DNA from: a bacterium
Lineage (GTDB): Bacteria; Hinthialibacterota; Hinthialibacteria; Hinthialibacterales; Hinthialibacteraceae
Assembly: GCA_041946805.1 (NCBI GenBank)
Contig: JBHGBC010000001.1
Coordinates: 2,866-66,865, forward strand
Length of the DNA: 64,000 bases
Direction of reading: 5' to 3'
Shown: one piece after another, positions 454 through 50,700 of the stretch
How the letters are laid out: each line of letters starts with the position of its first letter
How positions within the stretch are numbered: the first letter of the stretch is position 1
Notes under the pieces: model-generated
Seen by the model: only the letters and a program-made list of their open reading frames with translations
Databases searched by the model: none
Told to the model about the DNA's origin: nothing
Position numbers and translations under genes: made by a program

Positions 454-1407
454 TCACAACGCCGCCAGGGCGCCGCGCATATAGGCGTACGATTCGATCA
501 TCCCCGGCATCGGATTGTCGGCGTCCTTCTCGTACTCCAAGGCCACGTGCCCCGTGAAACCCACTTCCAGCAAGGCTTTCAGCACGCCGGGGATGTCGAT
601 CACCCCGCGGCCGACTTCGGTGGCCCCGCCCTGGGCGTCGCGGCCGGTCACGTCCTTGATGTGAAAATCGTACAAGCGGTCATGGACGGCGTGGACCGCC
701 TCGACCTCGTTCAAGCCCAGACGGACGGTGTGGCCGATATCGATGCACACGCCCATGTGTTCGCCGAACTGCTTGGCGCTTTTGTAGGCGTCCATGTGGG
801 AGGGATAGCGGTCATCGTTGGGGCCGTGGTTGTGGATGGCTACTTTGATGTCATATTCCTCGGCCATTCGGGCGACCGCGGGGAGGGCGTCGAGATCCGG
901 GGCGGACACCATCACCGGCATCCCGGCGTCGCGGGCGTACTCGAAGGCGTTGCGGATCTGCTTGGCGTCATTTTTCAGGTACACCACGCCGCAGCCCATA
1001 AGGTTGATGCCCGCCTCCTTGACCTTGCGGGCCGCCTCCTGGCGTTCCTCTTTCGTTGAATCCATCTTGAGGTGGAAGTCCTTGAGGGTGACGTATTTCA
1101 TACCGATCTTCTTCATCATCTCCAGCGTTTCGTCCAGGGAGAACTTCCGGGCGGTATAGGACGCAAGACCCAGTTTCAGATTCTTGGCGGAATGAGTGGA
1201 TGCCGAGGCGCTGGCGGAAGCGGACACGCTGGCGGAAGCGGACGCGCTGGACGATTCCACGGCGCCGGCGGAACCGCGCGGAGCGGCGAGGGCCAAGGCC
1301 GCCAGCCCCGTGGAGGCGATGAATCCCCTTCGGTCCAGAATGGGTGTATGGGTCATGGGTTTTGGTTCCTTTCCAGTCAAATTCGGATTCGGGCGAAAAA
1401 TCATCAT
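454..1407 (-). CDS. Sugar phosphate isomerase/epimerase (xylose-isomerase-like TIM barrel) with twin-arginine signal peptide
   Basis: 317-aa ORF. N-terminus has RRGFIASTGLAALALA (TAT motif), followed by a low-complexity SASASASVSASASAS linker, then a TIM-barrel isomerase-like body (HLKMDST...GINLMGCG...HNHGPNDD...IDIGHTVRLG). Confidence 0.75.
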   Translation of the reverse strand: MMIFRPNPNLTGKEPKPMTHTPILDRRGFIASTGLAALALAAPRGSAGAVESSSASASASVSASASASASTHSAKNLKLGLASYTARKFSLDETLEMMKKIGMKYVTLKDFHLKMDSTKEERQEAARKVKEAGINLMGCGVVYLKNDAKQIRNAFEYARDAGMPVMVSAPDLDALPAVARMAEEYDIKVAIHNHGPNDDRYPSHMDAYKSAKQFGEHMGVCIDIGHTVRLGLNEVEAVHAVHDRLYDFHIKDVTGRDAQGGATEVGRGVIDIPGVLKALLEVGFTGHVALEYEKDADNPMPGMIESYAYMRGALAAL

Positions 1408-1698
1408 TTTTATAACACATGAAATGGGGGATTGGGGAGGGGGATATAGTCATGGAAACCATCTTCCCTGGCAATCTATCCCTCATAACGATAGGGTCTG
1501 TATCAGACCGGACAGCGTGGGTGCCATGCGGATTTATGCCGTGTTATAATAGAAAGGTGGAGGATCATCACGGCATATTCATAAAATTTTTTTCTTCATA
1601 ATTTTTTGGAGTATTATTTCAGGATTGAATGGGTGAACGCAAGCATGACTGGAGAAGATTTGCGGCATTCACGTAGACTTTTATGAATATGCGGTGTT

Positions 1699-2127
1699 AT
1701 GATTGATACGCTTAGCGAAAAAGAACGAAGCGAAAGAATGTCCTTGGTACGAGGCAAGGATACCAAGCCTGAAATGGTTGTCCGTCGACTGGTTCATGGC
1801 CTAGGGTATCGTTACCGTCTTCATGATGGCAAACTCCCGGGTAAGCCGGATCTGGTGTTTGCATCAAGGAAAAAGGTAATTTTTGTGCATGGATGTTTTT
1901 GGCACCGTCATGGAAAGTGCAAACTCGCCAGAATGCCTAAATCTCGATTGGATTTTTGGCATTCCAAATTGGAAGGGAACCGCAGACACGACTTGAAAAA
2001 TCAGAGATTGTTGAAAAAGATGGGATGGAGTTATCTTATAATCTGGGAATGCGAGTTAAAAGAAATCAAGTTGATAGAGGAACGGATCGTTGATTTTTTA
2101 TCATTGACTAACGAGGACAAACAATGA
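1699..2127 (+). CDS. vsr: Very-short-patch-repair endonuclease Vsr
   Basis: 142 aa; MSLVRGKDTKPE...RYRLHDGKLPGKPDLVF...IFVHGCFWHRH.C motifs typical of Vsr. Low-GC region. Stop overlaps the start of the methyltransferase gene (ATGA). Confidence 0.9.
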   Translation: MIDTLSEKERSERMSLVRGKDTKPEMVVRRLVHGLGYRYRLHDGKLPGKPDLVFASRKKVIFVHGCFWHRHGKCKLARMPKSRLDFWHSKLEGNRRHDLKNQRLLKKMGWSYLIIWECELKEIKLIEERIVDFLSLTNEDKQ

Positions 2128-3332
2128 AATCGGTTGAATTGTTCGCGGGAGGTGGAGGCCTGGGATTGGGTTTGAGCATGGTGGGTTTCGGCCCTACACT
2201 GATTTTGGAAAAAGACAAATGGGCTTGCGACACGATTCGGGAAAATCAAATCTGTGGCTATCCTCTAGTCCAAGATTGGGATGTTTTTGAGTGCGATGTA
2301 AGGAATTTTGATTTTGGCCATATTGAAGGTGTTGAATTGGTCTCGGGGGGGCCGCCTTGTCAGCCATTTTCCCTGGGTGGTAAGCACATGGCGTATTTGG
2401 ATGAAAGAGATATGTTTCCCACGACAGTGGAAGTCGTGCGGAAATTGCGTCCCCGGGCTTTTTTGATTGAGAATGTGAAGGGCATCACGAGACAAGCCTT
2501 CGCGAATTATTTTCAATATATTCTTCTTCAACTTTCCTTTCCCGAAATTATCAAAAAAAATAGTGAGTCTTGGATGGACCATTTATCCAGATTGGAAAAA
2601 CATAAAACCCGTGGACGAATTCAGGGACTGGCTTATAACGTTGTGGCTAGATTATTAAACGCGGCGGACTATGGAGTGCCGCAGTTTCGGGAACGGATTT
2701 TCATTGTAGGTTTTAGGACCGACCAGGATCGAGAATGGAGTTTTCCCGAGCCAACACATTCGATGGACGCCTTGCTATACGATCAGTGGATCTCGGGTGA
2801 ATATTGGGAGAGGCATGAGATATCCCTAAAAAACCGCCCGTCGCCACCCGCAAAAATCCTTCCCAGAATTAAAAAACTAAATCAAACACTTTTTCCGAAT
2901 ATGATTGGCAAACCTTGGCGAACGGTACGAGACGCGCTTTCCGGATTACCTGATCCACGGGACTCCGGGGCGGATAAGTTTCATAATCATACATACCAAC
3001 CAGGCGCGAAATCATATCCTGGACATACGGGCAGCCAGCTGGATTTTCCCGCCAAAACCTTGAAGGCAGGGGATCATGGCGTGCCTGGCGGAGAAAACAT
3101 GTTGGTTATGCCCAATGGCGGGATTCGATATTTCTCGGTCCGGGAGTCAGCTCGGCTGCAAACATTTCCCGATGGATACCGTTTTCACGGATCATGGACA
3201 GAAACCATGAGACAACTTGGAAATGCGGTACCCGTGATTCTTGCCCGCGCCGTGGGCGCTAGCATCGTGCAAGAACTTGTTTTTAGTCAGGAAAAAGCCT
3301 TGTTGAAGCAGTCTAACGAAATCATTTCATGA
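2124..3332 (+). CDS. DNA (cytosine-5)-methyltransferase
   Basis: 402 aa; motif I ELFAGGGGLGLG, motif IV GGPPCQPFSLGGK, ENVKG, target-recognition domain and C-terminal QLGNAVPV motif. Translationally coupled to vsr upstream and the REase downstream. Confidence 0.9.
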   Translation: MKSVELFAGGGGLGLGLSMVGFGPTLILEKDKWACDTIRENQICGYPLVQDWDVFECDVRNFDFGHIEGVELVSGGPPCQPFSLGGKHMAYLDERDMFPTTVEVVRKLRPRAFLIENVKGITRQAFANYFQYILLQLSFPEIIKKNSESWMDHLSRLEKHKTRGRIQGLAYNVVARLLNAADYGVPQFRERIFIVGFRTDQDREWSFPEPTHSMDALLYDQWISGEYWERHEISLKNRPSPPAKILPRIKKLNQTLFPNMIGKPWRTVRDALSGLPDPRDSGADKFHNHTYQPGAKSYPGHTGSQLDFPAKTLKAGDHGVPGGENMLVMPNGGIRYFSVRESARLQTFPDGYRFHGSWTETMRQLGNAVPVILARAVGASIVQELVFSQEKALLKQSNEIIS

Positions 3333-3934
3333 AAAACATATCTCCTTATAATCCACTTGATAAAAGGCACCTAGGTAAAAGTGTGGCGGATGCTCTTTTA
3401 TCCCAAGAGAAAATTCCTCTCAATGAAATCGAACCCTTTAACGGAGCGGGGATCTATGCGATTTATTACCGAGGGGATTTCCGAGGGTATGAATTTCTAT
3501 CGCGAGGAGGCTGGACCGAAATCCCCATCTATGTCGGCAAGGCGGTGCCAGCTGGCGCTAGAAAAGGGAACTTTGGATTGGATATCAATCCAGGATTTGC
3601 CTTGCACAATCGCTTGAATGAGCATGCCACCAGCATTCAACAAGCCCAGAATCTTCGGATCGAGGATTTTGTATGTCGATTTTTAGTTGTGGATGACATC
3701 TGGATACCTCTGGGGGAATCTCTTTTAATCGCGAAATTCTCTCCCCTCTGGAACAAAATTATCGACGGCTTCGGTAATCATGATCCTGGGAAGGGAAGAT
3801 ACAACCAAGTCCGCTCACGGTGGGACACTTTACATCCGGGTCGAGAATGGGCCTTGCGATGCAAGGAACGGCCTGAAACCGTGGAACAAATAATGATCGA
3901 AATAGAGAATTTTCTTCGGAGTGTGATCATTTGA
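3329..3934 (+). CDS. GIY-YIG type II restriction endonuclease, Eco29kI family
   Basis: 201 aa; GIY (AGIYAIYY) ... YVG (IPIYVGKA), then R-x3-H (RLNEH), then E...N spaced 12 apart. This spacing pattern matches the Eco29kI-type GIY-YIG REase active site as I recall it. ATGA overlap with the MTase gene. Confidence 0.7.
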   Translation: MKNISPYNPLDKRHLGKSVADALLSQEKIPLNEIEPFNGAGIYAIYYRGDFRGYEFLSRGGWTEIPIYVGKAVPAGARKGNFGLDINPGFALHNRLNEHATSIQQAQNLRIEDFVCRFLVVDDIWIPLGESLLIAKFSPLWNKIIDGFGNHDPGKGRYNQVRSRWDTLHPGREWALRCKERPETVEQIMIEIENFLRSVII

Positions 3935-3980
3935 CATTATTAAATAATTAAAGAAAGCGTTTTTTATAAGATCATCCGTG

Positions 3981-4075
3981 GGATGGGTTGGCGCGCAGCG
4001 CGTAACCCATCACATGACCGCCTCATGAACATCACTCTCTCCCCGCGCGGGAGAGAGCCAGGGGGAGGGAAAGCC
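3981..4075 (+). repeat. Mosaic hairpin repeat, copy A (GATGGGTTgGCGCGCaGCGcGTAACCCATC module + CTCTCCC..GGGAGAG hairpin + GGGGGAGGGAAA)
   Basis: Matches the core and accessory modules of other copies (for example the reverse-oriented copy at 37123-37248). Sits at the right boundary of the low-GC R-M island. Confidence 0.65.
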
Positions 4076-4140
4076 TTGCATGAACAATCGATCGGGGAGT
4101 TTCAACCAATGAACCAATCCAGGAAAAATCACGCCCCCCC

Positions 4141-5586
4141 TCACACCCGCTTGCGCTTGCTGGTGGGGAGGATGTCCATCTTCTCGCGGTACTTGGCGAC
4201 CGTGCGGCGGGCGATGTTGAGGTTGTAGTCGCGGTGCAGGATTTCGGTGATTTTCTGGTCGGAGAGGGGCTTGCGCGGGTCTTCTTCCTCGATCAGGGTG
4301 CGGATGATCTCCATGACGCTCTTGGCGGACATGTCGTCGCTGCCGGAGGTGTCGAGGCCGGTGGAGAAGAAATACTTGAGTTCGAACAGCCCGCGGGGGG
4401 TCTGAACGTATTTTTTGTTGACCACGCGGCAGACGGTGGCTTCGTGGATGCCCAGTTCGTCGGCGATGTCGCGCAGCTTGAGGGGGCGCAGGGAGGTCAC
4501 GCCTTCCTCCAAGAAGCCGATCTGCTTGTCCATGATGGCCTTGGTCACGCGGTAGAGCGTGCGCCGGCGTTGTTCGATGTTGCGGATCAGCCAGATCGCG
4601 GACTGGAATTTCTTGCGGATGAACTCGTACTCCTCGTCGGTGATGCCGTCCTTGTTTTGCAGCATCTCGCGGTACTTGCGGCTGATGCGCAGGGGGGGCG
4701 AGCCTTCGTCGTTGACGCGCACCTGCCATTCGCCGTCCACTTTTTCGATGAAAACGTCGGGGGTGATGTACTCCACCGGCTCGTGGTGGTATTGGCGCGC
4801 GGGCCGGGGATCCAGGCCGCTGATGATGTCGGCGATTTCCTGCACGTGCGTTTCGGTGACGCCCAGGGCGCGGGCGATTTCCTTCAACCGGCGGCGTTCG
4901 AGCAGGGGGAGATAATGGCGGATGACGGCGAGGATATCATCGTCATCGATTTCCAGGTTCCGGCACTGGATCTCGAGGCATTCCTGCAAATTCCGGGCGG
5001 CGATCCCCGACGGATCGAAGCCCTGGATGATCTTGAGGATGGCTTCGACCTTTTCCTCGGTTTGGCTGAAGGTCTCGGCGATCTCCTTGACGGTCACGTC
5101 CAGGAAGCCGTCCTCGTTGAGATGGTCGATAATGTATTCGCCGATCTGGAATTCCAATTCGCCGTTGATGGAGATCCCCAGCTGCCAGAGGAGATGATCC
5201 TTGAGGGTTTCTTCCTGCGCCATCTGCATGGTGGTTTCGTCCCCCTCTTCCTCGATGGAAGCCGAAGAGCCATTGCCCACGAAACCCAGGTCGCTGCTGT
5301 CGGTAAAATAATCGGTCCAGTTTTGATCGAGTTCGATATGCCCCAACTCCCGCTCACCGGCCTCACCGTCCAGATCCTCGGGTGTGATTTCCGGTTCCTC
5401 GGTGGAAAGATCGGATGTGCCGGTGAACTCCTCTTCCTCCAACATGGGATTTTCGGCCATCTCCTCCTGGAGCAGTTCGGACAGTTCCAGGGTGGAGAGT
5501 TGCAGCAGTTGGATCGACTGCTGCATTTGCGGCGTCATGATCAGCCGCTGGGTCATTTTTTGTTGGAGTTGTAACCGTTGATCCAT
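4141..5586 (-). CDS. rpoN: RNA polymerase sigma-54 factor
   Basis: 481 aa; N-terminal Gln/Leu-rich region I (MQQSIQLLQLSTLELSELLQEE), acidic linker, and C-terminal RpoN box ARRTVAKYRE. Confidence 0.95.
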   Translation of the reverse strand: MDQRLQLQQKMTQRLIMTPQMQQSIQLLQLSTLELSELLQEEMAENPMLEEEEFTGTSDLSTEEPEITPEDLDGEAGERELGHIELDQNWTDYFTDSSDLGFVGNGSSASIEEEGDETTMQMAQEETLKDHLLWQLGISINGELEFQIGEYIIDHLNEDGFLDVTVKEIAETFSQTEEKVEAILKIIQGFDPSGIAARNLQECLEIQCRNLEIDDDDILAVIRHYLPLLERRRLKEIARALGVTETHVQEIADIISGLDPRPARQYHHEPVEYITPDVFIEKVDGEWQVRVNDEGSPPLRISRKYREMLQNKDGITDEEYEFIRKKFQSAIWLIRNIEQRRRTLYRVTKAIMDKQIGFLEEGVTSLRPLKLRDIADELGIHEATVCRVVNKKYVQTPRGLFELKYFFSTGLDTSGSDDMSAKSVMEIIRTLIEEEDPRKPLSDQKITEILHRDYNLNIARRTVAKYREKMDILPTSKRKRV

Positions 5587-6159
5587 TTAGACTGCCTGTT
5601 AAACCGCGCCTTTCGTTTTCTATGGTGATTATCCAGGTTGGATCCGACCAATCGCAATACATCCGGGATCTATTATAACTCTCAATTAAATTTTCATGCC
5701 AAAAATATCACATGTTGGCGGATCTGTCAATATGCCATGGCTGGCTTCCTCCTGCTTCTTTCTATTCTATGTTCATTTATATCAAATAGTTATAACTTTT
5801 CAGAAATGAGGATTGTGTGGCATTTGAACCGCAAAAATTTTGCTGGAAGATCGCGTGTCCTAGCCTCATTATCTCTCGAAACGCGGATCCGGAATACGGA
5901 ATGCTCTCCCGAAAAAAGATCGGAGGGAATAATGGGAGTCGGCATGAGATTATTTTAAAATTCTATAATTTGACCAGAACTATAATTAATATGCTGTTTC
6001 ATCCGGTTCGGCCGCTTTGTACAGGGACGCGTTGCCATGTGCCCCTTCCATCGACAAACTCCCTATGTATCTCCCCTCTCCCCATGTATGGATTGACGAA
6101 GCCGGGTCCCACCCGTATTCTCGATCCAACCGATTTGAAATGGTCTATTACGTAACGTA

Positions 6160-7710
6160 TTGATGCATCAATATTTATATCGAAATTTCATGGATTCCCT
6201 TTTCAACCGCCTCGCTGCTGATGGCCGCGCCGCTCTCCGCCGGACGGTGGATTTCTGGCGGGGGCGTTGGATTGCTCATTCCCTCCTCCTGGCGGTGTTC
6301 GTGGCGGTCCACACTCTGTATTACGGCCTGGGCGGGGTGTTCGACGCCGACATCTTCTCGTTCTGGCAAGTGATCGATCTCGATTTGTTAAAACACCGCC
6401 TCCTCGAAAGCCTTTGGTATCTCCACATGCAGCCGCCCCTGTTCAATGGCTTTTTGGGCCTGGTGGAGAAGTGGAGTTTCGGATCTGCGTACAGCGTGTA
6501 CGGGGCGGTTTATCTCGCCTTCGGGCTTGTGGCGGCCTGCTCTTTGCTTCATCTGCAGTTACGGTTCCACATTGCGGCGCCCATCGCGCTGGGAGTGACC
6601 AGCCTGTGCCTGATCTCGCCTTCGTGGTTCCTATATGAGAACTGGCTGATGTACACTTTCCCCGTGATGGCCTTGCTGGGGCTGTCGGCGGTGCGGATGC
6701 ATATCTACCTGGAGAGGCCCACGATCCGCAACGGGATCTGGTTTTTCGGCCTCCTGGCGGTGTTGGTCTACCTGCGTTCGTTGTTTCAATTCGGCTGGTT
6801 CGTTTTTGCGGCGGCTCTGGCCTGGATGCATCTGAAAGACCGGCGGCTTGATGTGGCGAAAGCCCTGGCCGTCCCGCTCGCGCTGGTATTCCTGTTGTAC
6901 CTGAAAAACTGGCTGGTCTTCGGAACTTGGGCCACCAGCACCTGGCTGGGACCCAACCTGATGGTTATGACCCGCTTGGTTCCCCCCGACATCCGGCGGG
7001 ACCTGGTGCTGAAGGGTGAACTCTCGACCCTCTCGTACGTGCATCCCTTTTACCCCATCGAGAGCTACCGGGGGTATACCCAGGTGGATCCCAACCAAAC
7101 CTGGGGAGTCCCGGTGCTCGACCGGATGTTGAAAAGCGATGGCGATCAAAACCGCAATCACGGCCTGTACTTGATGATCAACCGGACCAACCTGCGGGAC
7201 GCCTGCGTGTTAATCCGGGCCGCTCCGGGGTATTACCTCCAAACGGTGGCCGAAGCATGGCGGCGGTTTTGTCTCCCCGCATGGAACTACCGTTATTTCC
7301 GGGGACAAAATCCGGTTTTTCTGGAAGGGATGGTGAAGTGGAACCACTGGCTGCTGGGTTGGCCGGAGGAGGATTTCATCAACCAGTTGCGAAAGATCGA
7401 GGGGGATCCCCGTCTCACGGCCTTTTGTTGGCTGCTGCCGGCGCTGGCGCTGGGCGGGATCGTCCTGCTGCTCTTGCCCGGGCATATCACCCGGTTTTCG
7501 TCCGTGGACCGCATCGTTTTGTTATTCGTCTTGATCACCCTGCTGATGGTAACCTTCGAAGGGACCTTTTGCCTCCACCGGGAGAACAACCGCATCCGCT
7601 TCGTATTGACTCCCTATTTCGCCTTGCTCGTGGGACTTCTAGCGGACCGGATGGTGCAGGCCGTGCGGCGGCTTATTGGTTTTCCCACCGCTCCAGCTGC
7701 TCTTCCATAA
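6160..7710 (+). CDS. Polytopic integral membrane protein (possible GT-C-like glycosyltransferase; unassigned)
   Basis: 516 aa with about 10 or more hydrophobic helices. No soluble catalytic motif recognised. Family not assigned. Confidence 0.55.
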   Translation: MMHQYLYRNFMDSLFNRLAADGRAALRRTVDFWRGRWIAHSLLLAVFVAVHTLYYGLGGVFDADIFSFWQVIDLDLLKHRLLESLWYLHMQPPLFNGFLGLVEKWSFGSAYSVYGAVYLAFGLVAACSLLHLQLRFHIAAPIALGVTSLCLISPSWFLYENWLMYTFPVMALLGLSAVRMHIYLERPTIRNGIWFFGLLAVLVYLRSLFQFGWFVFAAALAWMHLKDRRLDVAKALAVPLALVFLLYLKNWLVFGTWATSTWLGPNLMVMTRLVPPDIRRDLVLKGELSTLSYVHPFYPIESYRGYTQVDPNQTWGVPVLDRMLKSDGDQNRNHGLYLMINRTNLRDACVLIRAAPGYYLQTVAEAWRRFCLPAWNYRYFRGQNPVFLEGMVKWNHWLLGWPEEDFINQLRKIEGDPRLTAFCWLLPALALGGIVLLLLPGHITRFSSVDRIVLLFVLITLLMVTFEGTFCLHRENNRIRFVLTPYFALLVGLLADRMVQAVRRLIGFPTAPAALP

Positions 7711-10362: not shown

Positions 10363-10705
10363 GGCCGTATCACTCTCCGATGGCAATCGGGAACCCAACC
10401 GTACCGCTTCCCGATGCATGGGGACGTTCGCATGCGTACCCACGCTCATCCGTCTATCATAAAAACTCTCCGTGAGAATGAAAGTGGATTCTTGCGGCTG
10501 GGGCGGTTCATCATTCACCTTGAGGGGATCCGTTGAATGGATCCAACGCCTCGAAACCCGCCACAACCACTATTAGGTCCTGTTGAGTTTTCGTACTACA
10601 TGATGATTCACCGGAATTCAGTACTGGGATTCAAGCGCCAATGGCGCGTTAGAATTGCGCCCTGGGCAACGTCCTGGGAAAAGGACGATCAAATGCATAA
10701 TTCCT

Positions 10706-10840
10706 TCTCCCCCTGGGAGAGGATTAGGGTGAGGGAATTATTGTAGGGGCGGACCTTGGTGTCCGCCCGAATTTCATCGAGTGGATGGAATGCCTTCTTC
10801 ACCAGCGGGTACGCACTTGTCGGATGAACCGGAAAATCAG
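10706..10840 (+). repeat. Mosaic hairpin repeat, copy B (core hairpin + GGGTGAGGGAAT + TAGGGGCGGACCTTGGTGTCCGCCCG hairpin + GTACGC..GGATGAACC arm)
   Basis: Aligns module by module with copies at 31365-31500 and 33704-33848. Confidence 0.7.
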
Positions 10841-21992: not shown

Positions 21993-22274
21993 ATGGATTG
22001 GCAGGAACTCATCGCATTGCTCATCGCCGCCGCCTGCGGGTATTCCGCGTTTCGCTCGTTCCGGGCCTCCTGGAAGGGACAGGGCGGGTGCGCGAAATGC
22101 CCCGCGGGCAAGCCCAAGCCGGTGGGGATTGGCGGGATCGGCTTACCGGGGAAGAAGATAGATCCAGCTAAGTACAAGGAAAAAATAAACATCTCTTCCC
22201 TCACCCCAATCCTCTCCCAGAGGGAGAGGGAGCAGAAACGAGACCCGTATCATTTTCCGAAAAGTGGTTTGTGA
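21993..22274 (+). CDS. FeoB-associated Cys-rich small membrane protein; 3' end extended into a repeat element
   Basis: MDWQELIALLIAAACGYSAFRSFRASWKGQGGCAKCPAGK is one TM helix plus a Cys-rich tail, as in FeoB-associated Cys-rich proteins. AAGGAGAA RBS 5 nt upstream. The last ~25 codons (..ISSLTPILSQREREQ..) are encoded by repeat copy D. Confidence 0.55.
   Translation: MDWQELIALLIAAACGYSAFRSFRASWKGQGGCAKCPAGKPKPVGIGGIGLPGKKIDPAKYKEKINISSLTPILSQREREQKRDPYHFPKSGL
22194..22233 (-). repeat. Mosaic hairpin repeat, copy D (reverse orientation: TCCCTCACCC..CCTCTCCC-agag-GGAGAGGG)
   Basis: Core consensus. Lies inside the 3' end of the small ORF that follows feoB. Confidence 0.7.
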
Positions 22275-22425
22275 AATAGCGTTCGCAAGTGTTTTCTGAT
22301 TTCCAAATAGGGGACTATTTATCACTCCCTCATTTGTATTGGATCATGATGTGGAAAATGGGTATGCACTAGGGCGTTGCATTTCCCATGTGTGGAGCCG
22401 CCAATCATCACTTCCCGCTAAACCA

Positions 22426-22466
22426 TTCCCTCTCCCCCCGGGCGAGGGCCAGGGTGAGGGAAACGG
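22426..22466 (+). repeat. Mosaic hairpin repeat, copy E
   Basis: CCCTCTCCCC-ccgg-GCGAGGGCCAGGGTGAGGGAAA, forward-orientation core. Confidence 0.7.
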
Positions 22467-22519
22467 TAATGAATGCATCTTTCAATTCAGAAGCATATCC
22501 TTCGTAAATCACTCCCCCC

Positions 22520-23670: not shown

Positions 23671-23759
23671 TTTCCCTCACCCCGGCCCTCTCCCGGAGGC
23701 AGAGGGAGCAGAAATAGCACCAGTAGCCAGTAGGATGGGTTAGCCAAGCGTAACCCATT
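23671..23759 (-). repeat. Mosaic hairpin repeat, copy F (reverse core + GGATGGGTTAGCCAAGCGTAACCCATT module)
   Basis: TTTCCCTCACCCCGGCCCTCTCCCGGAGGCAGAGGGAGC followed by a GATGGGTT..AACCCAT hairpin module shared with copies A and N. Confidence 0.7.
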
Positions 23760-24993: not shown

Positions 24994-25040
24994 ATCCCTC
25001 ACCCCAACCCTCTCCCGGAGGGAGAGGGAGCGGAAATGAG
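24994..25040 (-). repeat. Mosaic hairpin repeat, copy G (reverse)
   Basis: ATCCCTCACCCCAACCCTCTCCCGGAGGGAGAGGGAGCGGAAATGAG. Confidence 0.7.
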
Positions 25041-25153
25041 AGAGTTATTGTGTATTGGGACGTATTGGTTTTACGAAGGACTTCAATATGATCCACGATG
25101 GCGTGGCCTAACACCAGGATGTCACCGCCGGTCATTACCTCCCGCCCATCTAT

Positions 25154-25193
25154 CCTCTCTCCCTCTGGAAGAGGGCCGGGGTGAGGGAAAGCC
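25154..25193 (+). repeat. Mosaic hairpin repeat, copy H (forward)
   Basis: CCTCTCTCCCTCTGGAAGAGGGCCGGGGTGAGGGAAAGCC. Together with copy G it forms an inverted pair about 110 bp apart. Confidence 0.7.
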
Positions 25194-25242
25194 TTTCTTC
25201 CTGGCCTGCATCTCAAGGAGTGGGTTTTTCAACGTATCGGAT

Positions 25243-26028
25243 TTACTTCCCCTCGGGGAAATAACCCAAATCCGGCAGAAACTCGACGTGCATCATCTCC
25301 TCGATCCGCCGCACGAGAGGCGCGTTCTTCTTCAAAAACGCGGCGTATTCGGGTCCTAACAGTGCCATGTCTTTGGGGTTTTCCTCCAGGAACTGAGGCA
25401 GATCCTGGGTTTGAATCGCCACCATATACGCGGGGGTGTCAGGGCCGAACAACACTTCATACACAAAGTAATCCAGGCGGGATTTCTTGCTCTTGTGCAA
25501 GGCCAGCGCTTCCTTGAATATTCCTGGAATTTCAAATCCGGCTTCCGGTTTGAAATAGTAGGTCACGACATAAACATTAAAGGATTTCATGATGTCGAAC
25601 TCAAACACCGCTTCATCCGGCATGTAAGACAGTTCGGGGTGTGACACGATGATCATGGTCGAGGAAGACAGGATATTTTCAGCGTTTTGTGTCATCAATG
25701 CCTTGAATTTCTCGGATCCCACCGCCTGCTCCACTTTCTGGAAGGCTTCCATCCCTTTGTCCAAGGCGGCAAAACCCTCGATCGGCATCGCGTAATAGAA
25801 CGACGACAAGTAGCGGAAAGCCAAGGACGCATACGGCCAGTTCCCTTGCTTGAACATCTCGTTGATTTCCTTGGCGGCCGCTATGTAGGCCTCCTCCTGG
25901 CCGACCTTCACATCATCCCGCATGAGCAGAAATATCTGCGGTTCCGGTTCTTCCCGCGAAAAAGAATTGGATCCGGGAATCAGTATCAGAGTGACAAAAA
26001 CCGGGATGAACAGCCAACGTGCTTTCAT
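25243..26028 (-). CDS. Secreted hypothetical protein, paralog 1 of a tandem pair
   Basis: Signal peptide MKARWLFIPVFVTLILIPGSNSFS, with AGGAGG about 6 nt upstream of this ATG. About 50% identity to the downstream paralog across the full length. The ORF track extends to 26073. Confidence 0.6.
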   Translation of the reverse strand: MKARWLFIPVFVTLILIPGSNSFSREEPEPQIFLLMRDDVKVGQEEAYIAAAKEINEMFKQGNWPYASLAFRYLSSFYYAMPIEGFAALDKGMEAFQKVEQAVGSEKFKALMTQNAENILSSSTMIIVSHPELSYMPDEAVFEFDIMKSFNVYVVTYYFKPEAGFEIPGIFKEALALHKSKKSRLDYFVYEVLFGPDTPAYMVAIQTQDLPQFLEENPKDMALLGPEYAAFLKKNAPLVRRIEEMMHVEFLPDLGYFPEGK

Positions 26029-26304: not shown

Positions 26305-27087
26305 TTACTGCTCTGCGGGGGAATAACACAATTCCGGCAGGAATGCCACGTTCATCTGCTCATCGATCCGCTGCACCAGACTTGCGAGTTTCTTGCGCAT
26401 CTCGGCGCATTCCGGCCCCATTTGTTCCATGGCTTTTTTGCTTTCCTCCAGGAATTGAGATAGATCTTGGGTTGGGAAAACAACACTGAACGCGGGAGTC
26501 TCTTGACCGAAGATCACTTCACAAACCTGGTAGGCCATGCGGACCTTTTTGTCTTTGGCCATGGCCAGCATTTCCTTGAACACCGCCTCGATATCGAAGC
26601 AGCATTCCGGCTTGAAATGGTAGGTCGCGATGTACGAGTTATACGTTTTTGTGAAATCGACATTGAACAAGGGATCCTCTGGTTCGTAGGACAGGTCGGG
26701 GCGCGCGACGAGAATCGAGGAGGAAGTGGATAGAATGTTTTGGTTGACCTTTTTTACCACTTCCTTGTATTTCTCGGATCCCGCCGACTGCTCCACTTTA
26801 TGGAAGGCTTCCATGCCTTTGTCCAAGGCGGCGAAACTGTCTAGGGGGACGATTGTGTAAAACGTGGACGAATGGCGGTAAGCCATGGACATGTAGGGGA
26901 AGCCGGCCTTCTTGAACATCTCGTTGGCTTCCTGGCCGGCCGCGATGTAGGCCTCCTCCCGGCCGACCTTCACGTTGTCCTGCATCAGCAGAAAAAGCTG
27001 CGGTTTCGGCGGTTCCTCCGCGAAGGACGAAGAACCGGAAATCGAGACCAGCGCGATAACGGCCGGATACAACCATCGTGCTTTCAT
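26305..27087 (-). CDS. Secreted hypothetical protein, paralog 2 of a tandem pair
   Basis: Signal peptide MKARWLYPAVIALVSISGSSSFA, with the same AGGAGGCGCAC-ATG ribosome-binding context. Conserved blocks with paralog 1 include LFLLM.D.VKVG.EEAYIAA, FAALDKGMEAF.KVEQ and GSEK.K. The ORF track extends to 27153. Confidence 0.6.
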   Translation of the reverse strand: MKARWLYPAVIALVSISGSSSFAEEPPKPQLFLLMQDNVKVGREEAYIAAGQEANEMFKKAGFPYMSMAYRHSSTFYTIVPLDSFAALDKGMEAFHKVEQSAGSEKYKEVVKKVNQNILSTSSSILVARPDLSYEPEDPLFNVDFTKTYNSYIATYHFKPECCFDIEAVFKEMLAMAKDKKVRMAYQVCEVIFGQETPAFSVVFPTQDLSQFLEESKKAMEQMGPECAEMRKKLASLVQRIDEQMNVAFLPELCYSPAEQ

Positions 27088-31232: not shown

Positions 31233-31364
31233 GCCGCGCTCACATTGCTTAGGTCTGATTGATTAACTCTGTATGTATGGCTCATCCGGCGAGTGTGTCT
31301 TTTTTTTTTCAAAAAATCACGATCGCCATCCAATCCATCTGGTACGACCAATAGCCCTAAATTA

Positions 31365-31500
31365 CCTCTCCCTTTGGTAGAGGGTTAGGGTGAGGGATTT
31401 TTTCTAGGGGCGGACCTTGGTGTCCGCCCGTATCATAACGTGGATAGAATAACGTAACCCCATCATGTACGCGCTTCCCGGATGAACCACATAAGTTATA
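31365..31500 (+). repeat. Mosaic hairpin repeat, copy I (core + GGGTGAGGGATT + TAGGGGCGGACCTTGGTGTCCGCCCG + CATGTACGCGCTTCCCGGATGAACC arm)
   Basis: Full-length composite copy, nearly identical in the hairpin-2 module to copy B. Confidence 0.75.
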
Positions 31501-31611: not shown

Positions 31612-31733
31612 AGTAATGTCTTTGAGCGCCAACGGCGCGGCAGGAGTATAGCCCGGGTGTAAGCCCTGGGATGTTTGCGAAAAAGTAAATAATCCCCTCT
31701 TCCTCTAGGAAAGGGATAAGGTGAGGGAAACCC
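31612..31733 (+). repeat. Mosaic hairpin repeat, copy J (GTAATGTCTTTGAGCGCCAACGGCGCGG..AAAAGTAAATAATCCCC left arm + degenerate core + GGTGAGGGAAA)
   Basis: Its ~90-bp left arm is about 85% identical to 42551-42640 (copy M). Lies in tandem with copy I in the same intergenic region. Confidence 0.7.
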
Positions 31734-31843
31734 TGCGCTATATCTACTGTCCGTACAATCGATTAAACGGTTCCATATTATTATTTTTGGCTACATTGAG
31801 TGTACTCAACAGAACCTGACCGGATGAATCCCTCTTTCGGCCT

Positions 31844-33506: not shown

Positions 33507-33703
33507 AAGTAAAATATAAGAGGGGGATTCCCTCCCTGGGGCTCAATCTCCCTTCGGAGATTCCGATAATAAGCTGGCGCGGCCGGCTTATTTCTTTTTC
33601 GGATCATTCGGCAAATGCGTGCCTTTTATATCGAATAGCTCGCTTGTTCAGATGGCTGGATGGCGACTCTTCGAGTTGATCGCTCAGAATCACTCCCAGA
33701 ATC

Positions 33704-33848
33704 CGCTCTCCCTCTGGGAGAGGGCCAAGGTGAGGGAATTGTGGTTGGGAGGTCCTTGGTCTCCACCCGTACCAGCAATTGGATGGCCTGCCAGTTCACC
33801 ATCCATGCACGCGCAAACCGGAAGAATATCTTTCGGACAACCGGTGTG
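33704..33848 (+). repeat. Mosaic hairpin repeat, copy K (core + GGTGAGGGAATT + GGGAGGTCCTTGGTCTCCACCC + CATGCACGCGCAAACCGGAAGAAT arm)
   Basis: Module order is identical to copies B and I, with compensatory changes in the hairpin-2 stem. Confidence 0.7.
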
Positions 33849-37122: not shown

Positions 37123-37248
37123 GGTGGGCCACGCGCCGCTATGAGCCCACCCTGCAACCTGTAGTGAGAGTTGATGGGTTACACGCTGCGCGCGAGCCCA
37201 TCCTGCGTTTTCTTCCCTCACCCTAGCCCTCTCCCAGAGAGAGAGGGG
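37123..37248 (-). repeat. Mosaic hairpin repeat, copy N (reverse: GGTGGGCC..GCCCACC hairpin + GATGGGTTACACGCTGCGCGCGAGCCCATC + reverse core)
   Basis: The GATGGG..CCCATC module is the reverse complement of the copy-A module (about 27 of 30 nt). Core is TTCCCTCACCCTAGCCCTCTCCCAGAGAGAGAGGGG. Confidence 0.7.
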
Positions 37249-37274
37249 ATTTGGAGCTGGTTTTCATCGATCAC

Positions 37275-42554: not shown

Positions 42555-42850
42555 TGTTTTTTGAGCGCCAACGGCGCGGCCTGAGCATAGCCCGGCGCGT
42601 AAGCCCTGAGATGGTTGCGTGAAAAGTAAACAATCCCCTTTCCCTCCGGGAGAAGGCCTGGGTGAGGGAAAGCCTTTTCGCTTTGTTTTACTTCTACCGG
42701 TTGCGTATATCCTTTCGCTTATCGGTAAAATAAGTCCCTTCAGGGGACGGCTTTATGGCAGCCCAGGGGATCAACCCGGGGCCAATTGCCTCGTGTGTAC
42801 GAGCTCGTGTGTACGCGCTTCCCGGATGAATCCCAAAAGTCTTACAAGGA
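42551..42850 (+). repeat. Mosaic hairpin repeat, copy M (longest: GTAATGTTTTTTGAGCGCCAACGGCGCGG.. left arm + core + GGGTGAGGGAAAGCC + hairpin + GTACGCGCTTCCCGGATGAAT arm)
   Basis: The left arm is about 85% identical to copy J. The right arm GTACGCGCTTCCCGGATGAA is identical to copy I. Begins at the stop codon of the GmhB-like gene. Confidence 0.75.
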
Positions 42851-50550: not shown

Positions 50551-50700
50551 GCCGGGCTTTCCTTTCCTCCCCCTCCAGAAGAGGGGCTGGGGGAGGTGAA
50601 ATCCTTACAACACCCTGAACCATTGTCATCTCTGCCATCTCCACCATAAACCAAACACCAAACCATTGTAGGGGCACGTTGCTATGTACCCCTGCGGTAA
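50551..50700 (+). repeat. Mosaic hairpin repeat, divergent copy O (CCTCCCCCTCCAGAAGAGGGGCTGGGGGAGGTGAAAT + TGTAGGGGCACGTTGCTATGTACCCCTGCGG hairpin-2 variant)
   Basis: Shares the core architecture and the TGTAGGGGC.. hairpin-2 opening with copies B and I. Confidence 0.5.

What the first reader, a model, noticed from the sequence alone, without database searches (positions are those of the whole stretch)
1560..3960. Low-GC horizontally acquired island carrying a Vsr / C5-MTase / GIY-YIG REase operon
Between the isomerase gene start and the rpoN 3' end, GC drops abruptly (AT-rich codons such as aaa, att, ttt dominate). The three genes overlap by ATGA at both junctions, indicating a translationally coupled cassette. 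Vsr pairs with a C5-cytosine MTase to repair T:G mismatches from 5mC deamination. The third gene has GIY..YVG..R-x3-H..E-x11-N spacing like Eco29kI-family nucleases. A mosaic repeat copy sits at the right boundary.
Basis: partly seen in the sequence, partly recalled or inferred. Interest (0 to 1): 0.55.

Follow-up and report, generated by a model that had tools for sequence, protein, structure and literature searches.

The report
Acquired Eco29kI-type restriction-modification cassette with Vsr
A 2.7-kb piece of foreign, low-GC DNA inserted between two housekeeping genes of an uncultured Omnitrophota bacterium carries an ordinary, already-recognisable three-gene defence cassette (mismatch-repair nuclease Vsr, cytosine-5 DNA methylase, Eco29kI-family restriction enzyme) of a type also found on phages and plasmids.

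Summary
Three + strand genes overlap by ATGA: vsr (1699-2127), a C5-cytosine methyltransferase (2124-3332) and an Eco29kI-family GIY-YIG restriction endonuclease (3329-3934). All three pass curated family thresholds and keep every catalytic residue I checked. GC is 0.46 against 0.595 outside, and GC3 is 0.45-0.46 against 0.75-0.82 in neighbouring genes.

In three related Omnitrophota genomes the isomerase gene directly follows rpoN. In the closest one about 44 bp replace the 2,697 bp found here (1444-4140), so this is an insertion. The dispersed repeat at the right edge is real.

The methylase is 46% identical to M.Eco29kI over its full length, including the variable target-recognition region. 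Every characterised family nuclease named in the papers I read cuts CCGC/GG. The likely site is therefore CCGCGG, with m5C on the second C, but this is inferred.

CCGCGG is not depleted (58 sites in 64 kb), so an active nuclease requires an active methylase.

The same vsr-M-R arrangement is annotated in Burkholderia phage Milagro, in a Paraburkholderia plasmid and in many metagenome contigs. GenBank already names this exact protein an Eco29kI-family enzyme. It is a routine new member of a known kind and of low interest.

The parts
1444..1698 (+). Left-hand non-coding part of the inserted segment (low-GC leader upstream of vsr). It contains a sigma-70-like site at 1521-1550 (GTGCCA-18-TATAAT with TG) and an 18-nt inverted repeat at 1569-1586 / 1679-1696 that ends 3 nt before the vsr ATG.
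   Evidence: Homology to the empty site in L002 ends at window ~1443. GC is 0.42. Promoter-like site: (consensus match only; the number of sites does not exceed the shuffles). Inverted repeat I1. No counterpart of this leader was found in other cassettes.
1699..2127 (+). vsr: very-short-patch-repair T:G mismatch endonuclease, 142 aa.
   Evidence: PF03852 E=3.5e-28. TIGR00632 137.5 bits against cut-off 97.85, covering profile positions 1-119 of 119. E. coli Vsr 1cw0 E=4e-27. D51, H64, C66, F67, W68, H69, H71, C74 and C118 align with E. coli D51, H64, C66, F67, W68, H69, H71, C73 and C117.
2124..3332 (+). C5-cytosine DNA methyltransferase, 402 aa, a homologue of M.Eco29kI. Its start overlaps the vsr stop (ATGA). 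GAGGA lies 6 nt upstream of the ATG.
   Evidence: PF00145 E=7.8e-53; TIGR00675 158.6 bits. Motifs: FAGGGG (7-12), PPCQ (77-80, catalytic C79), ENV (116-118), QFRER (187-191), GNAVP (366-370). Identity to M.Eco29kI of pECO29 is 46% over the full length, 45% across the variable region 201-330 and 59% in 285-330. HhaI and HaeIII align only to the conserved motif blocks.
3329..3934 (+). Eco29kI-family GIY-YIG Type II restriction endonuclease, 201 aa. Its start overlaps the methylase stop (ATGA).
   Evidence: PF09517 224.8 bits against cut-off 30.8, profile positions 1-164 of 164. Eco29kI structures 3mx1/3mx4/3nic E about 2e-39. Y43, Y68, R95, H99, E130 and N142 align with Eco29kI Y49, Y76, R104, H108, E142 and N154 and are invariant in alignment A1 (residue roles from PMC1952068). 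A 100% identical GenBank protein is named 'MAG: Eco29kI family restriction endonuclease [bacterium]'.
3935..4140 (.). Right-hand non-coding part between the REase stop and the rpoN stop. It has an AT-rich tail (3935-3975), a hairpin at 3979-4014 (a copy lies at 37172-37203) and a copy of the host's dispersed ~45-nt hairpin repeat at 4034-4078.
   Evidence: Absent from the empty site of L002, where homology resumes at window 4141. Repeat family D1/D3. 14 matches against 0.27 expected. The 32-nt, 91% match to 37203-37172. Whether these host-type repeats arrived with the cassette or separately is not resolved.
454..1407 (-). Left flanking host gene: xylose-isomerase-like TIM-barrel protein with a twin-arginine-type leader. 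Context only.
   Evidence: PF01261 E=8.8e-21. 91%, 74% and 63% identical homologues lie directly downstream of rpoN in L002, L004 and L007. Comparison with L002 suggests the real start is M18 (ATG ending at 1356).
4141..5586 (-). Right flanking host gene: rpoN (sigma-54), convergent with the cassette. Context only.
   Evidence: Sigma54_AID, CBD and DBD domains with E values from 5e-16 to 2e-61. 86% identity to Ca. Omnitrophota MAG JABLXU010000048.

Best explanation
This is a horizontally acquired Type IIP restriction-modification cassette of the Eco29kI (CCGC/GG) family with a companion Vsr nuclease. It is inserted in the rpoN-isomerase intergenic spacer of a Candidatus Omnitrophota genome.

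Proposed working:
- The three genes are transcribed as one + strand unit from the low-GC leader. ATGA overlaps couple their translation in the order vsr, M, R, so the methylase is made before or together with the nuclease.
- The methylase puts a 5-methyl group on the second C of CCGCGG on both strands, which protects the roughly one-per-kb chromosomal sites.
- The GIY-YIG nuclease cuts unmethylated CCGC/GG in incoming phage or plasmid DNA.
- Vsr nicks 5' of the T in T:G mismatches created by deamination of the m5C, so that repair restores C:G. This offsets the mutational cost of the methylase.

Shown here: gene identities, intact catalytic residues, the foreign composition, the insertion relative to related genomes, and the recurrence of the same cassette on phages and plasmids.

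Inferred: the recognition sequence, the methylated base, co-transcription, enzymatic activity and Vsr's mismatch context.
For: Family assignments with full-length matches above threshold. All six Eco29kI active-site residues, the five C5-MTase motifs I checked (I, IV, VI, VIII, X), and the Vsr catalytic and zinc residues are conserved (residue roles from PMC1952068).

The methylase aligns with M.Eco29kI through the variable region (45%; 59% in 285-330). Methylases of other specificity align only to the motif blocks.

Eco29kI, Cfr42I (32% identical to Eco29kI), MraI, NgoMIII and R.DraR1 all recognise CCGC/GG (PMC2241918; PMC10855626). M.Eco29kI methylates the second C (PMC3039593).

Insertion: L002, L004 and L007 have rpoN directly followed by the isomerase gene. 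In L002 about 44 bp separate the two homologous blocks, against 2,697 bp here. GC3 is 0.45-0.46 against 0.75-0.82. An independent 5.1-kb Logan contig spans both junctions.

Vsr, M and R identities rise and fall together across loci: 71/68/71% in L031, 61/61/60% in L051, and 45/43% (M/R) for pECO29. They are inherited as a unit. The same vsr-M-R order with overlapping genes occurs in Burkholderia phage Milagro, a Paraburkholderia plasmid next to an integrase, and 8 of the 19 metagenome loci, many of the others being too short to show the upstream gene.

An operon with M before R is a recognised passive way to ensure pre-emptive methylation (PMC3113576). There are 58 CCGCGG sites in 64 kb, so an active nuclease could not be tolerated without the methylase.
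Against: No activity, methylome or transcript data exist, and REBASE could not be queried. Identity to the biochemically characterised prototype is only 38-43% for R and 46% for M, so a shifted specificity is possible.

CCGCGG is not depleted: 58 observed against 59.3 (shuffles), 59.9 (dinucleotide) or 77 (order-4 Markov). There is therefore no evolutionary footprint of restriction in this genome.

No integrase, transposase, tRNA target or target-site duplication explains how the segment got in. The promoter-like site is a consensus match only, and such sites are no more frequent than in shuffles. No Shine-Dalgarno sequence is evident before vsr or R.

One family member (R.DraR1) cuts m5C-modified CCGCGG (PMC10855626), so protection by m5C is not universal in the family.
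Confidence: 0.82

Rival explanations
1. It is the same family and architecture, but with a different recognition sequence or methylated position than Eco29kI. The cassette would then be a new specificity within the family.
For: Identity to the characterised prototypes is only 38-46%. The base-contacting residues of the Eco29kI-DNA co-crystal could not be checked because the paper is not held. No depletion of CCGCGG is seen.
Against: Every characterised member named in the papers read cuts CCGC/GG, down to 32% identity with Eco29kI (PMC2241918; PMC10855626). [quoted passage not shown] The methylase's variable region is as conserved with M.Eco29kI as its catalytic core.
Confidence: 0.1
2. It is a decaying or domesticated remnant. 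The nuclease, or the whole cassette, is silent or inactive, and the methylase plus Vsr act as a solitary epigenetic pair.
For: No expression or activity data exist. Solitary Vsr-methylase pairs and truncated systems are common, for example NgoAXIII in Neisseria (PMC6789123). The genome shows no site avoidance.
Against: All three ORFs are full length relative to their homologues, with conserved starts. All catalytic residues are intact. The ATGA overlaps are preserved. The strongly foreign GC3 argues that too little time has passed for decay or for site avoidance to develop.
Confidence: 0.1
3. It is ancestral and was lost from the relatives (a deletion elsewhere rather than an insertion here), or the contig is an assembly or binning chimera.
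For: Only MAG-level relatives at 74-86% RpoN identity are available. No mobility gene or target duplication marks an insertion event.
Against: Three successively more distant relatives (86%, 76% and 74% RpoN identity) all have the uninterrupted rpoN-isomerase arrangement, so a single insertion is the more parsimonious history. GC3 is 0.45 against 0.8 in the flanks. Nucleotide homology with other cassettes covers only the coding parts, and those cassettes sit in unrelated contexts: a phage, a plasmid, and a prkA-DUF444-spoVR operon. A separate Logan assembly contig carries both junctions.
Confidence: 0.04

Closest known systems
Eco29kI R-M system of E. coli plasmid pECO29 (NC_001537; R.Eco29kI structures 3MX1/3MX4/3NIC)
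   Same: It pairs a GIY-YIG single-domain nuclease of PF09517, with all six active-site residues conserved, with a C5 methyltransferase that is homologous over its full length (46%). The two genes are tightly linked and overlap.
   Different: The gene order is reversed: R then M in pECO29, M then R here. pECO29 has no vsr gene. The R-first order of Eco29kI needs an internal M promoter and antisense promoters (PMC3113576), which should be unnecessary here. Nuclease identity is 38-43%. The location is chromosomal in Omnitrophota rather than on a small enterobacterial plasmid.
vsr / C5-methylase / Eco29kI-family endonuclease cassette of Burkholderia phage Milagro (OM638609, genes 047-049), and the same cassette on Paraburkholderia aromaticivorans plasmid NZ_CP051517
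   Same: The three-gene order, orientation and overlapping junctions are identical. Protein identities are about 60-62% for the nuclease in both; for the plasmid, where M and Vsr were also compared, they are each 61%. In both records all three genes are already annotated: by product name in the plasmid record, and through notes (Vsr endonuclease; IPR018575 Eco29kI restriction endonuclease) in the phage record.
   Different: Those copies sit on a temperate phage and on a plasmid next to a site-specific integrase. The window copy has no adjacent mobility gene and lies in a chromosomal intergenic spacer.
M-R pairs (70% identical) inserted in a prkA-DUF444-spoVR operon (ENA ERZ21869602 contigs; L028-L030)
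   Same: These are the closest nuclease homologues found apart from the identical GenBank and Logan copies of this locus (methylase 68-71%). They have a 402-aa methylase and a 200-aa nuclease with the same 4-nt overlap, also lodged between conserved host genes.
   Different: They have no vsr gene, and their GC is close to that of the host flanks (0.52 against 0.55).
DraI system of Deinococcus radiodurans (R.DraR1 / M.DraR1) and NgoAIII of Neisseria gonorrhoeae
   Same: R.DraR1 is an Eco29kI-family nuclease that recognises CCGC/GG (PMC10855626). The NgoAIII system is listed as recognising CCGCGG (PMC6789123), and an Eco29kI-like gene occurs in N. gonorrhoeae records.
   Different: DraI uses an m4C methylase encoded ten ORFs away, and R.DraR1 cuts m5C-modified sites. 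NgoAIII methylation was called 4mC by PacBio. Here the partner is a contiguous C5-class methylase with a Vsr, which points to m5C.

Membership tests
Eco29kI family restriction endonuclease (Pfam PF09517; GIY-YIG superfamily) | Full-length match to the family profile above the curated threshold | tested here: met
   224.8 bits against gathering score 30.8, E=7.1e-67, profile positions 1-164 of 164. phmmer against Eco29kI PDB chains gives E about 2e-39.
Eco29kI family restriction endonuclease (Pfam PF09517; GIY-YIG superfamily) | Active-site residues Y49, Y76, R104, H108, E142 and N154 of R.Eco29kI (mutagenesis in PMC1952068) | tested here: met
   Y43, Y68, R95, H99, E130 and N142 fall in the same alignment columns and are invariant among the 6 aligned members.
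Eco29kI family restriction endonuclease (Pfam PF09517; GIY-YIG superfamily) | Recognition and cleavage of CCGC/GG | not testable with these tools
   Inferred only. All characterised members named in the papers read share this site. The base-contact residues could not be compared because Mak et al. 2010 is not held.
Eco29kI family restriction endonuclease (Pfam PF09517; GIY-YIG superfamily) | Adjacent cognate methyltransferase homologous to M.Eco29kI | tested here: met
   The upstream gene overlaps by 4 nt and is 46% identical to M.Eco29kI over 382 aligned residues, including the variable region.
C5-cytosine DNA methyltransferase (Pfam PF00145 / TIGR00675) | Profile match above threshold, plus conserved motifs I (FxGxG), IV (PCQ with catalytic Cys), VI (ENV), VIII (QxRxR) and X (GNAVP) | tested here: met
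   180.4 bits against 22; 158.6 against 100.65. F7-G9-G11, P78-C79-Q80, E116-N117-V118, Q187-R189-R191 and G366-P370 are invariant in A2. The motif definitions come from established knowledge of the family.
C5-cytosine DNA methyltransferase (Pfam PF00145 / TIGR00675) | AdoMet-dependent formation of 5mC at a defined site (here predicted to be C(m5C)GCGG) | not testable with these tools
   The M.Eco29kI target base comes from PMC3039593. No methylome data are available here.
[quoted passage not shown] | Profile match above threshold over the whole domain | tested here: met
   97.7 bits against 27. 137.5 against 97.85, profile positions 1-119 of 119. E. coli Vsr 1cw0 E=4e-27.
[quoted passage not shown] | Catalytic Asp51, His64 and His69, zinc ligands Cys66, His71, Cys73 and Cys117, and intercalating Phe67 and Trp68 of E. 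coli Vsr (roles recalled from the published structure, not re-read here) | tested here: met
   D51, H64, H69, C66, H71, C74, C118, F67 and W68 are aligned and conserved, with a one-residue insertion after H71.
[quoted passage not shown] | Nicking 5' of T in T:G mismatches within the partner methylase's site context | not testable with these tools
   Some Vsr enzymes act in any sequence context (PMC6789123). The context here is unknown.
Horizontally acquired genomic islet | Composition deviating from the host | tested here: met
   GC 0.460 against 0.595. GC3 0.45-0.46 against 0.75-0.82. It is the lowest-GC 2.7-kb stretch of the window.
Horizontally acquired genomic islet | Empty site in related genomes | tested here: met
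   rpoN and the isomerase gene are adjacent in L002, L004 and L007. About 44 bp stand in place of 2,697 bp.
Horizontally acquired genomic islet | Mobility gene, tRNA target or flanking direct repeats | tested here: not met
   No integrase or transposase ORF lies in 1444-4140. The window has no tRNA. No direct repeat of at least 10 nt sits at the two junctions. How the segment entered is unexplained.

The most novel reading that the evidence does not exclude
The cassette may have entered a chromosomal intergenic spacer with no recombinase, tRNA site or target duplication, right beside copies of the host's own dispersed hairpin repeats (3979-4014 and 4034-4078). This could be an example of an R-M unit moving as an autonomous gene cassette through repeat-associated or illegitimate recombination in the uncultured phylum Omnitrophota. 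Alternatively, at 38-46% identity to the prototype, it could encode a shifted specificity within a family so far known only for CCGC/GG.
Probability: 0.1. Interest if true: 0.3.

Novelty: new member of a known kind. Interest (0 to 1): 0.1.

Why it matters
The practical value is modest. The finding predicts that this Omnitrophota lineage methylates C(m5C)GCGG and restricts unmethylated CCGCGG. That is useful for interpreting metagenomic methylomes, for linking MAG contigs and mobile elements by shared methylation, and for any future attempt at genetic manipulation. It is also a clean example, with the empty site preserved in relatives, of a small R-M cassette landing between housekeeping genes. 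It does not open a new question: the family, the vsr-M-R architecture and its presence on phages and plasmids are already annotated in public records.

Tried and rejected
1. Site avoidance. CCGCGG is not depleted: 58 observed against 59.3 expected from shuffles, 59.9 from a dinucleotide model and 77 from an order-4 Markov model. I did not take this as evidence against the system, because a recently acquired and protected site need not be avoided.

2. Flanking target-site duplication or terminal inverted repeats. Only short chance-level matches were found.

3. A copy of the host repeat in the empty site of L002, as a recombination substrate. Similarity was weak (score 27, 27 aligned columns), so no claim is made.

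4. Conservation of the non-coding leader and tail in other cassettes. There is none; nucleotide homology is confined to 1699-3922 (for the flanks).

5. Rfam and tRNA scans of the whole window. Nothing was found, so a tRNA-targeted island and a known leader RNA are both excluded.

6. Reading the Eco29kI-DNA co-crystal paper to compare base-contact residues. It is not held by PubMed id or by PMC id.

7. Paralogues of the three genes elsewhere in the window. None were found.

8. Structure prediction was not run. Sequence matches to solved structures were already decisive.
Full report
**What is there**

Three + strand ORFs occupy 1699-2127 (142 aa), 2124-3332 (402 aa) and 3329-3934 (201 aa). The stop of each gene overlaps the start of the next in ATGA, at 2124-2127 and 3329-3332 (read).

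Flanking them on the minus strand are a xylose-isomerase-like TIM-barrel gene (454-1407) and rpoN (4141-5586). The cassette is therefore divergent from the isomerase gene and convergent with rpoN.

**Composition**

- GC in 300-nt windows drops from about 0.58-0.65 to 0.41-0.48 between about 1350 and 4050.
- Segment 1444-4140 has GC 0.460, against 0.595 for the rest of the window.
- It is the lowest-GC 2.7-kb stretch of the window; the mean over such stretches is 0.589 with sd 0.034.
- Third-position GC is 0.448, 0.464 and 0.455 in the three genes, against 0.811, 0.822 and 0.754 in the isomerase gene, rpoN and ORF 6160.

The compositional observation is real and large.

**Gene identities**

- Gene 1 is a Vsr mismatch endonuclease. 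It matches PF03852 at E=3.5e-28 and TIGR00632 at 137.5 bits against a cut-off of 97.85 over the whole profile, and E. coli Vsr 1cw0 at E=4e-27. D51, H64, C66, F67, W68, H69, H71, C74 and C118 align with the catalytic, zinc-binding and intercalating residues of the E. coli enzyme (the residue roles are from my knowledge of the published structure).
- Gene 2 is a C5-cytosine methyltransferase, matching PF00145 at E=7.8e-53 and TIGR00675 at 158.6 bits. It has motifs FAGGGG, PPCQ (C79), ENV, QFRER and GNAVP.
- Gene 3 is an Eco29kI-family GIY-YIG restriction endonuclease. It matches PF09517 at 224.8 bits against a cut-off of 30.8, over profile positions 1-164 of 164, and the three Eco29kI crystal-structure sequences at E about 2e-39.
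- The six residues shown or predicted to form the Eco29kI active site are Y49, Y76, R104, H108, E142 and N154 (PMC1952068). They correspond to Y43, Y68, R95, H99, E130 and N142, all invariant in a six-member alignment.

**It is an insertion**

A scan of species-representative genomes with RpoN identified the host as Candidatus Omnitrophota; the best match is 86% identical (JABLXU010000048, locus L002).

- In L002, L004 and L007 (86%, 76% and 74% RpoN identity) the isomerase homologue lies directly downstream of rpoN, and no Vsr, methylase or nuclease homologue is present.
- At nucleotide level, window 608-1443 and 4141-5740 align to two blocks of L002 that are about 44 bp apart. In the window these blocks are 2,697 bp apart.
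- The left junction lies just upstream of a conserved TGTTATAAA (minus strand) in front of the isomerase gene. The right junction is within a few bases of the rpoN stop. The segment sits in a spacer and disrupts neither gene.
- A separately assembled 5.1-kb Logan contig carries both junctions, which argues against a chimera.
- No integrase or transposase ORF lies in the segment, the window has no tRNA, and no junction direct repeat was found. How it entered is unknown.

**The repeat at the right edge**

The 206 bp between the nuclease stop and the rpoN stop are not in the empty site. They contain a hairpin (3979-4014) with a 91% copy at 37172-37203. They also contain a copy (4034-4078) of a ~45-nt dispersed repeat, a CCCTCTCCC-n4-GGGAGAGGG hairpin followed by CCrGGGTGAGGGAAA.

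That family has 9 direct and 4 inverted copies. A degenerate pattern finds 14 matches against 0.27 expected. Whether it travelled with the cassette or arrived independently cannot be decided.

**Specificity (inferred)**

- The methylase is 46% identical to M.Eco29kI of pECO29 over 382 aligned residues. This includes 45% across the variable region 201-330 and 59% in 285-330, with invariant blocks in YPGHTGSxxDxPxKTLKAGxHGVPGGENM.
- M.HhaI and M.HaeIII align only to the conserved motif blocks.
- Eco29kI, Cfr42I (32% identical to Eco29kI), MraI, NgoMIII and R.DraR1 all recognise CCGC/GG (PMC2241918; PMC10855626).
- M.Eco29kI methylates the second cytosine (PMC3039593).
- The segment after the second GIY-YIG strand, YVGKAVPxGxR, is invariant. 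[quoted passage not shown]

I therefore predict CCGC/GG cleavage and C(m5C)GCGG methylation, with perhaps 75-80% confidence.

**Site statistics**

CCGCGG occurs 58 times in the window, against 59.3 ± 7.6 in dinucleotide-preserving shuffles, and never inside the inserted segment. With the segment removed, the count is 58 against 59.9 (dinucleotide) or 77 (order-4 Markov).

There is no clear avoidance. That fits a recent, methylase-protected acquisition. It also means an active nuclease would be lethal without the methylase.

**How it most likely works**

- Transcription probably starts in the low-GC leader. A GTGCCA-18-TATAAT site lies at 1521-1550, but this is only a consensus match.
- Translation is coupled through the ATGA overlaps. 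A GAGGA lies 6 nt before the methylase ATG.
- Because M precedes R, the methylase is made first or concurrently. This is a recognised passive solution to the establishment problem. It contrasts with Eco29kI itself, where R precedes M and an internal M promoter and antisense promoters are needed (PMC3113576; gene order).
- Vsr would correct T:G mismatches arising from m5C deamination. Vsr genes linked to m5C methylases are well known (PMC6789123; PMC10609329).

**Comparison with what is known**

- A 100% identical protein is already in GenBank as "MAG: Eco29kI family restriction endonuclease [bacterium]".
- The same vsr-M-R order with overlapping genes is annotated in Burkholderia phage Milagro (62% nuclease identity). 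It is also annotated on a Paraburkholderia aromaticivorans plasmid next to an integrase (60%). It occurs in 8 of 19 related metagenome loci, many of the rest being too short to tell.
- Variants exist. M-R without vsr sits inside a prkA-DUF444-spoVR operon and in a Halomonas phage. A convergent arrangement occurs in L046 and L047. R-M order is found in pECO29 and next to the N. gonorrhoeae homologue.
- Vsr, M and R identities co-vary across loci, so the three genes move as a unit.
- Nucleotide homology to other cassettes is about 64-67% and confined to the coding sequence. No recent donor was found.

**Verdict**

This is a new, uncharacterised member of a well-known kind of system in an uncultured phylum. 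It is neatly documented as an insertion but is not surprising.

Open points are the untested specificity and activity, and the mechanism of insertion. Interest is 0.1.

Noticed in passing
window 4034-4078, 10700-10744, 22196-22249(-), 22425-22469, 23672-23725(-), 24994-25047(-), 25152-25196, 31361-31405, 31692-31736, 33701-33745, 37213-37266(-), 42633-42677, 50562-50606: A dispersed ~45-nt REP-like repeat: hairpin CCCTCTCCC-n4-GGGAGAGGG followed by CCrGGGTGAGGGAAA. There are 14 matches to a degenerate pattern against 0.27 expected. Three copies (10699, 31360, 33700) extend to a 74-nt composite with a second hairpin, GGGGCGGACCTTGGTGTCCGCCC. An exact-pattern search found none in the 52 fetched loci, which include the related Omnitrophota contigs, and nothing in the window reaches an Rfam gathering score.
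   Followed up: partly
window 3979-4014 and 37172-37203: A second short hairpin element (GGGATGGGTT...AACCCATC) is present at the cassette's right edge. A 32-nt, 91% copy lies 33 kb away, next to another REP-like copy but in a different relative order, hence 'mosaic'.
   Followed up: partly
window 5590-6160: A ~570-bp low-GC (0.38), ORF-poor stretch lies between the rpoN start and the ORF at 6160. Homology with relative L002 extends only to about 5740. No Rfam hit. Its nature is unknown.
   Followed up: no
whole window outside 1444-4140: Several 6-bp palindromes are strongly under-represented against dinucleotide expectation: GGGCCC 16 against 59, TCGCGA 6 against 30, AAGCTT 0 against 9. This may reflect other restriction systems in this lineage. 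The sample is small, and the order-4 Markov expectations are much closer to the observed counts.
   Followed up: no
window 454-1407 (-): The listed isomerase ORF probably starts at M18 (ATG ending at 1356), judging from the L002 homologue. It then has a twin-arginine-type leader (RRGFIASTGLAALALAAP) followed by a Ser/Ala repeat (SSSASASASVSASASASAS) that is shorter or absent in relatives.
   Followed up: partly
window 1569-1586 / 1679-1696: An 18-nt inverted repeat (94% complementary, 92 nt apart) lies in the cassette leader. Its second arm ends 3 nt before the vsr ATG and covers a 7-codon mini-ORF (1683-1706) that overlaps the vsr start. It could be a regulatory structure. It is not conserved in other cassettes.
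   Followed up: partly
L028-L030 (ENA ERZ21869602 contigs), 4796-6603: The closest M-R homologues (about 70% aa) are wedged between prkA and the DUF444/spoVR genes of a conserved stress operon in three related contigs, without vsr. This is another example of this cassette landing inside a conserved gene cluster.
   Followed up: no
window 25796-26004 and 26858-27066: A 209-nt direct repeat at 72% identity, spaced 1,062 nt apart. It probably reflects tandem paralogous genes (D2).
   Followed up: no
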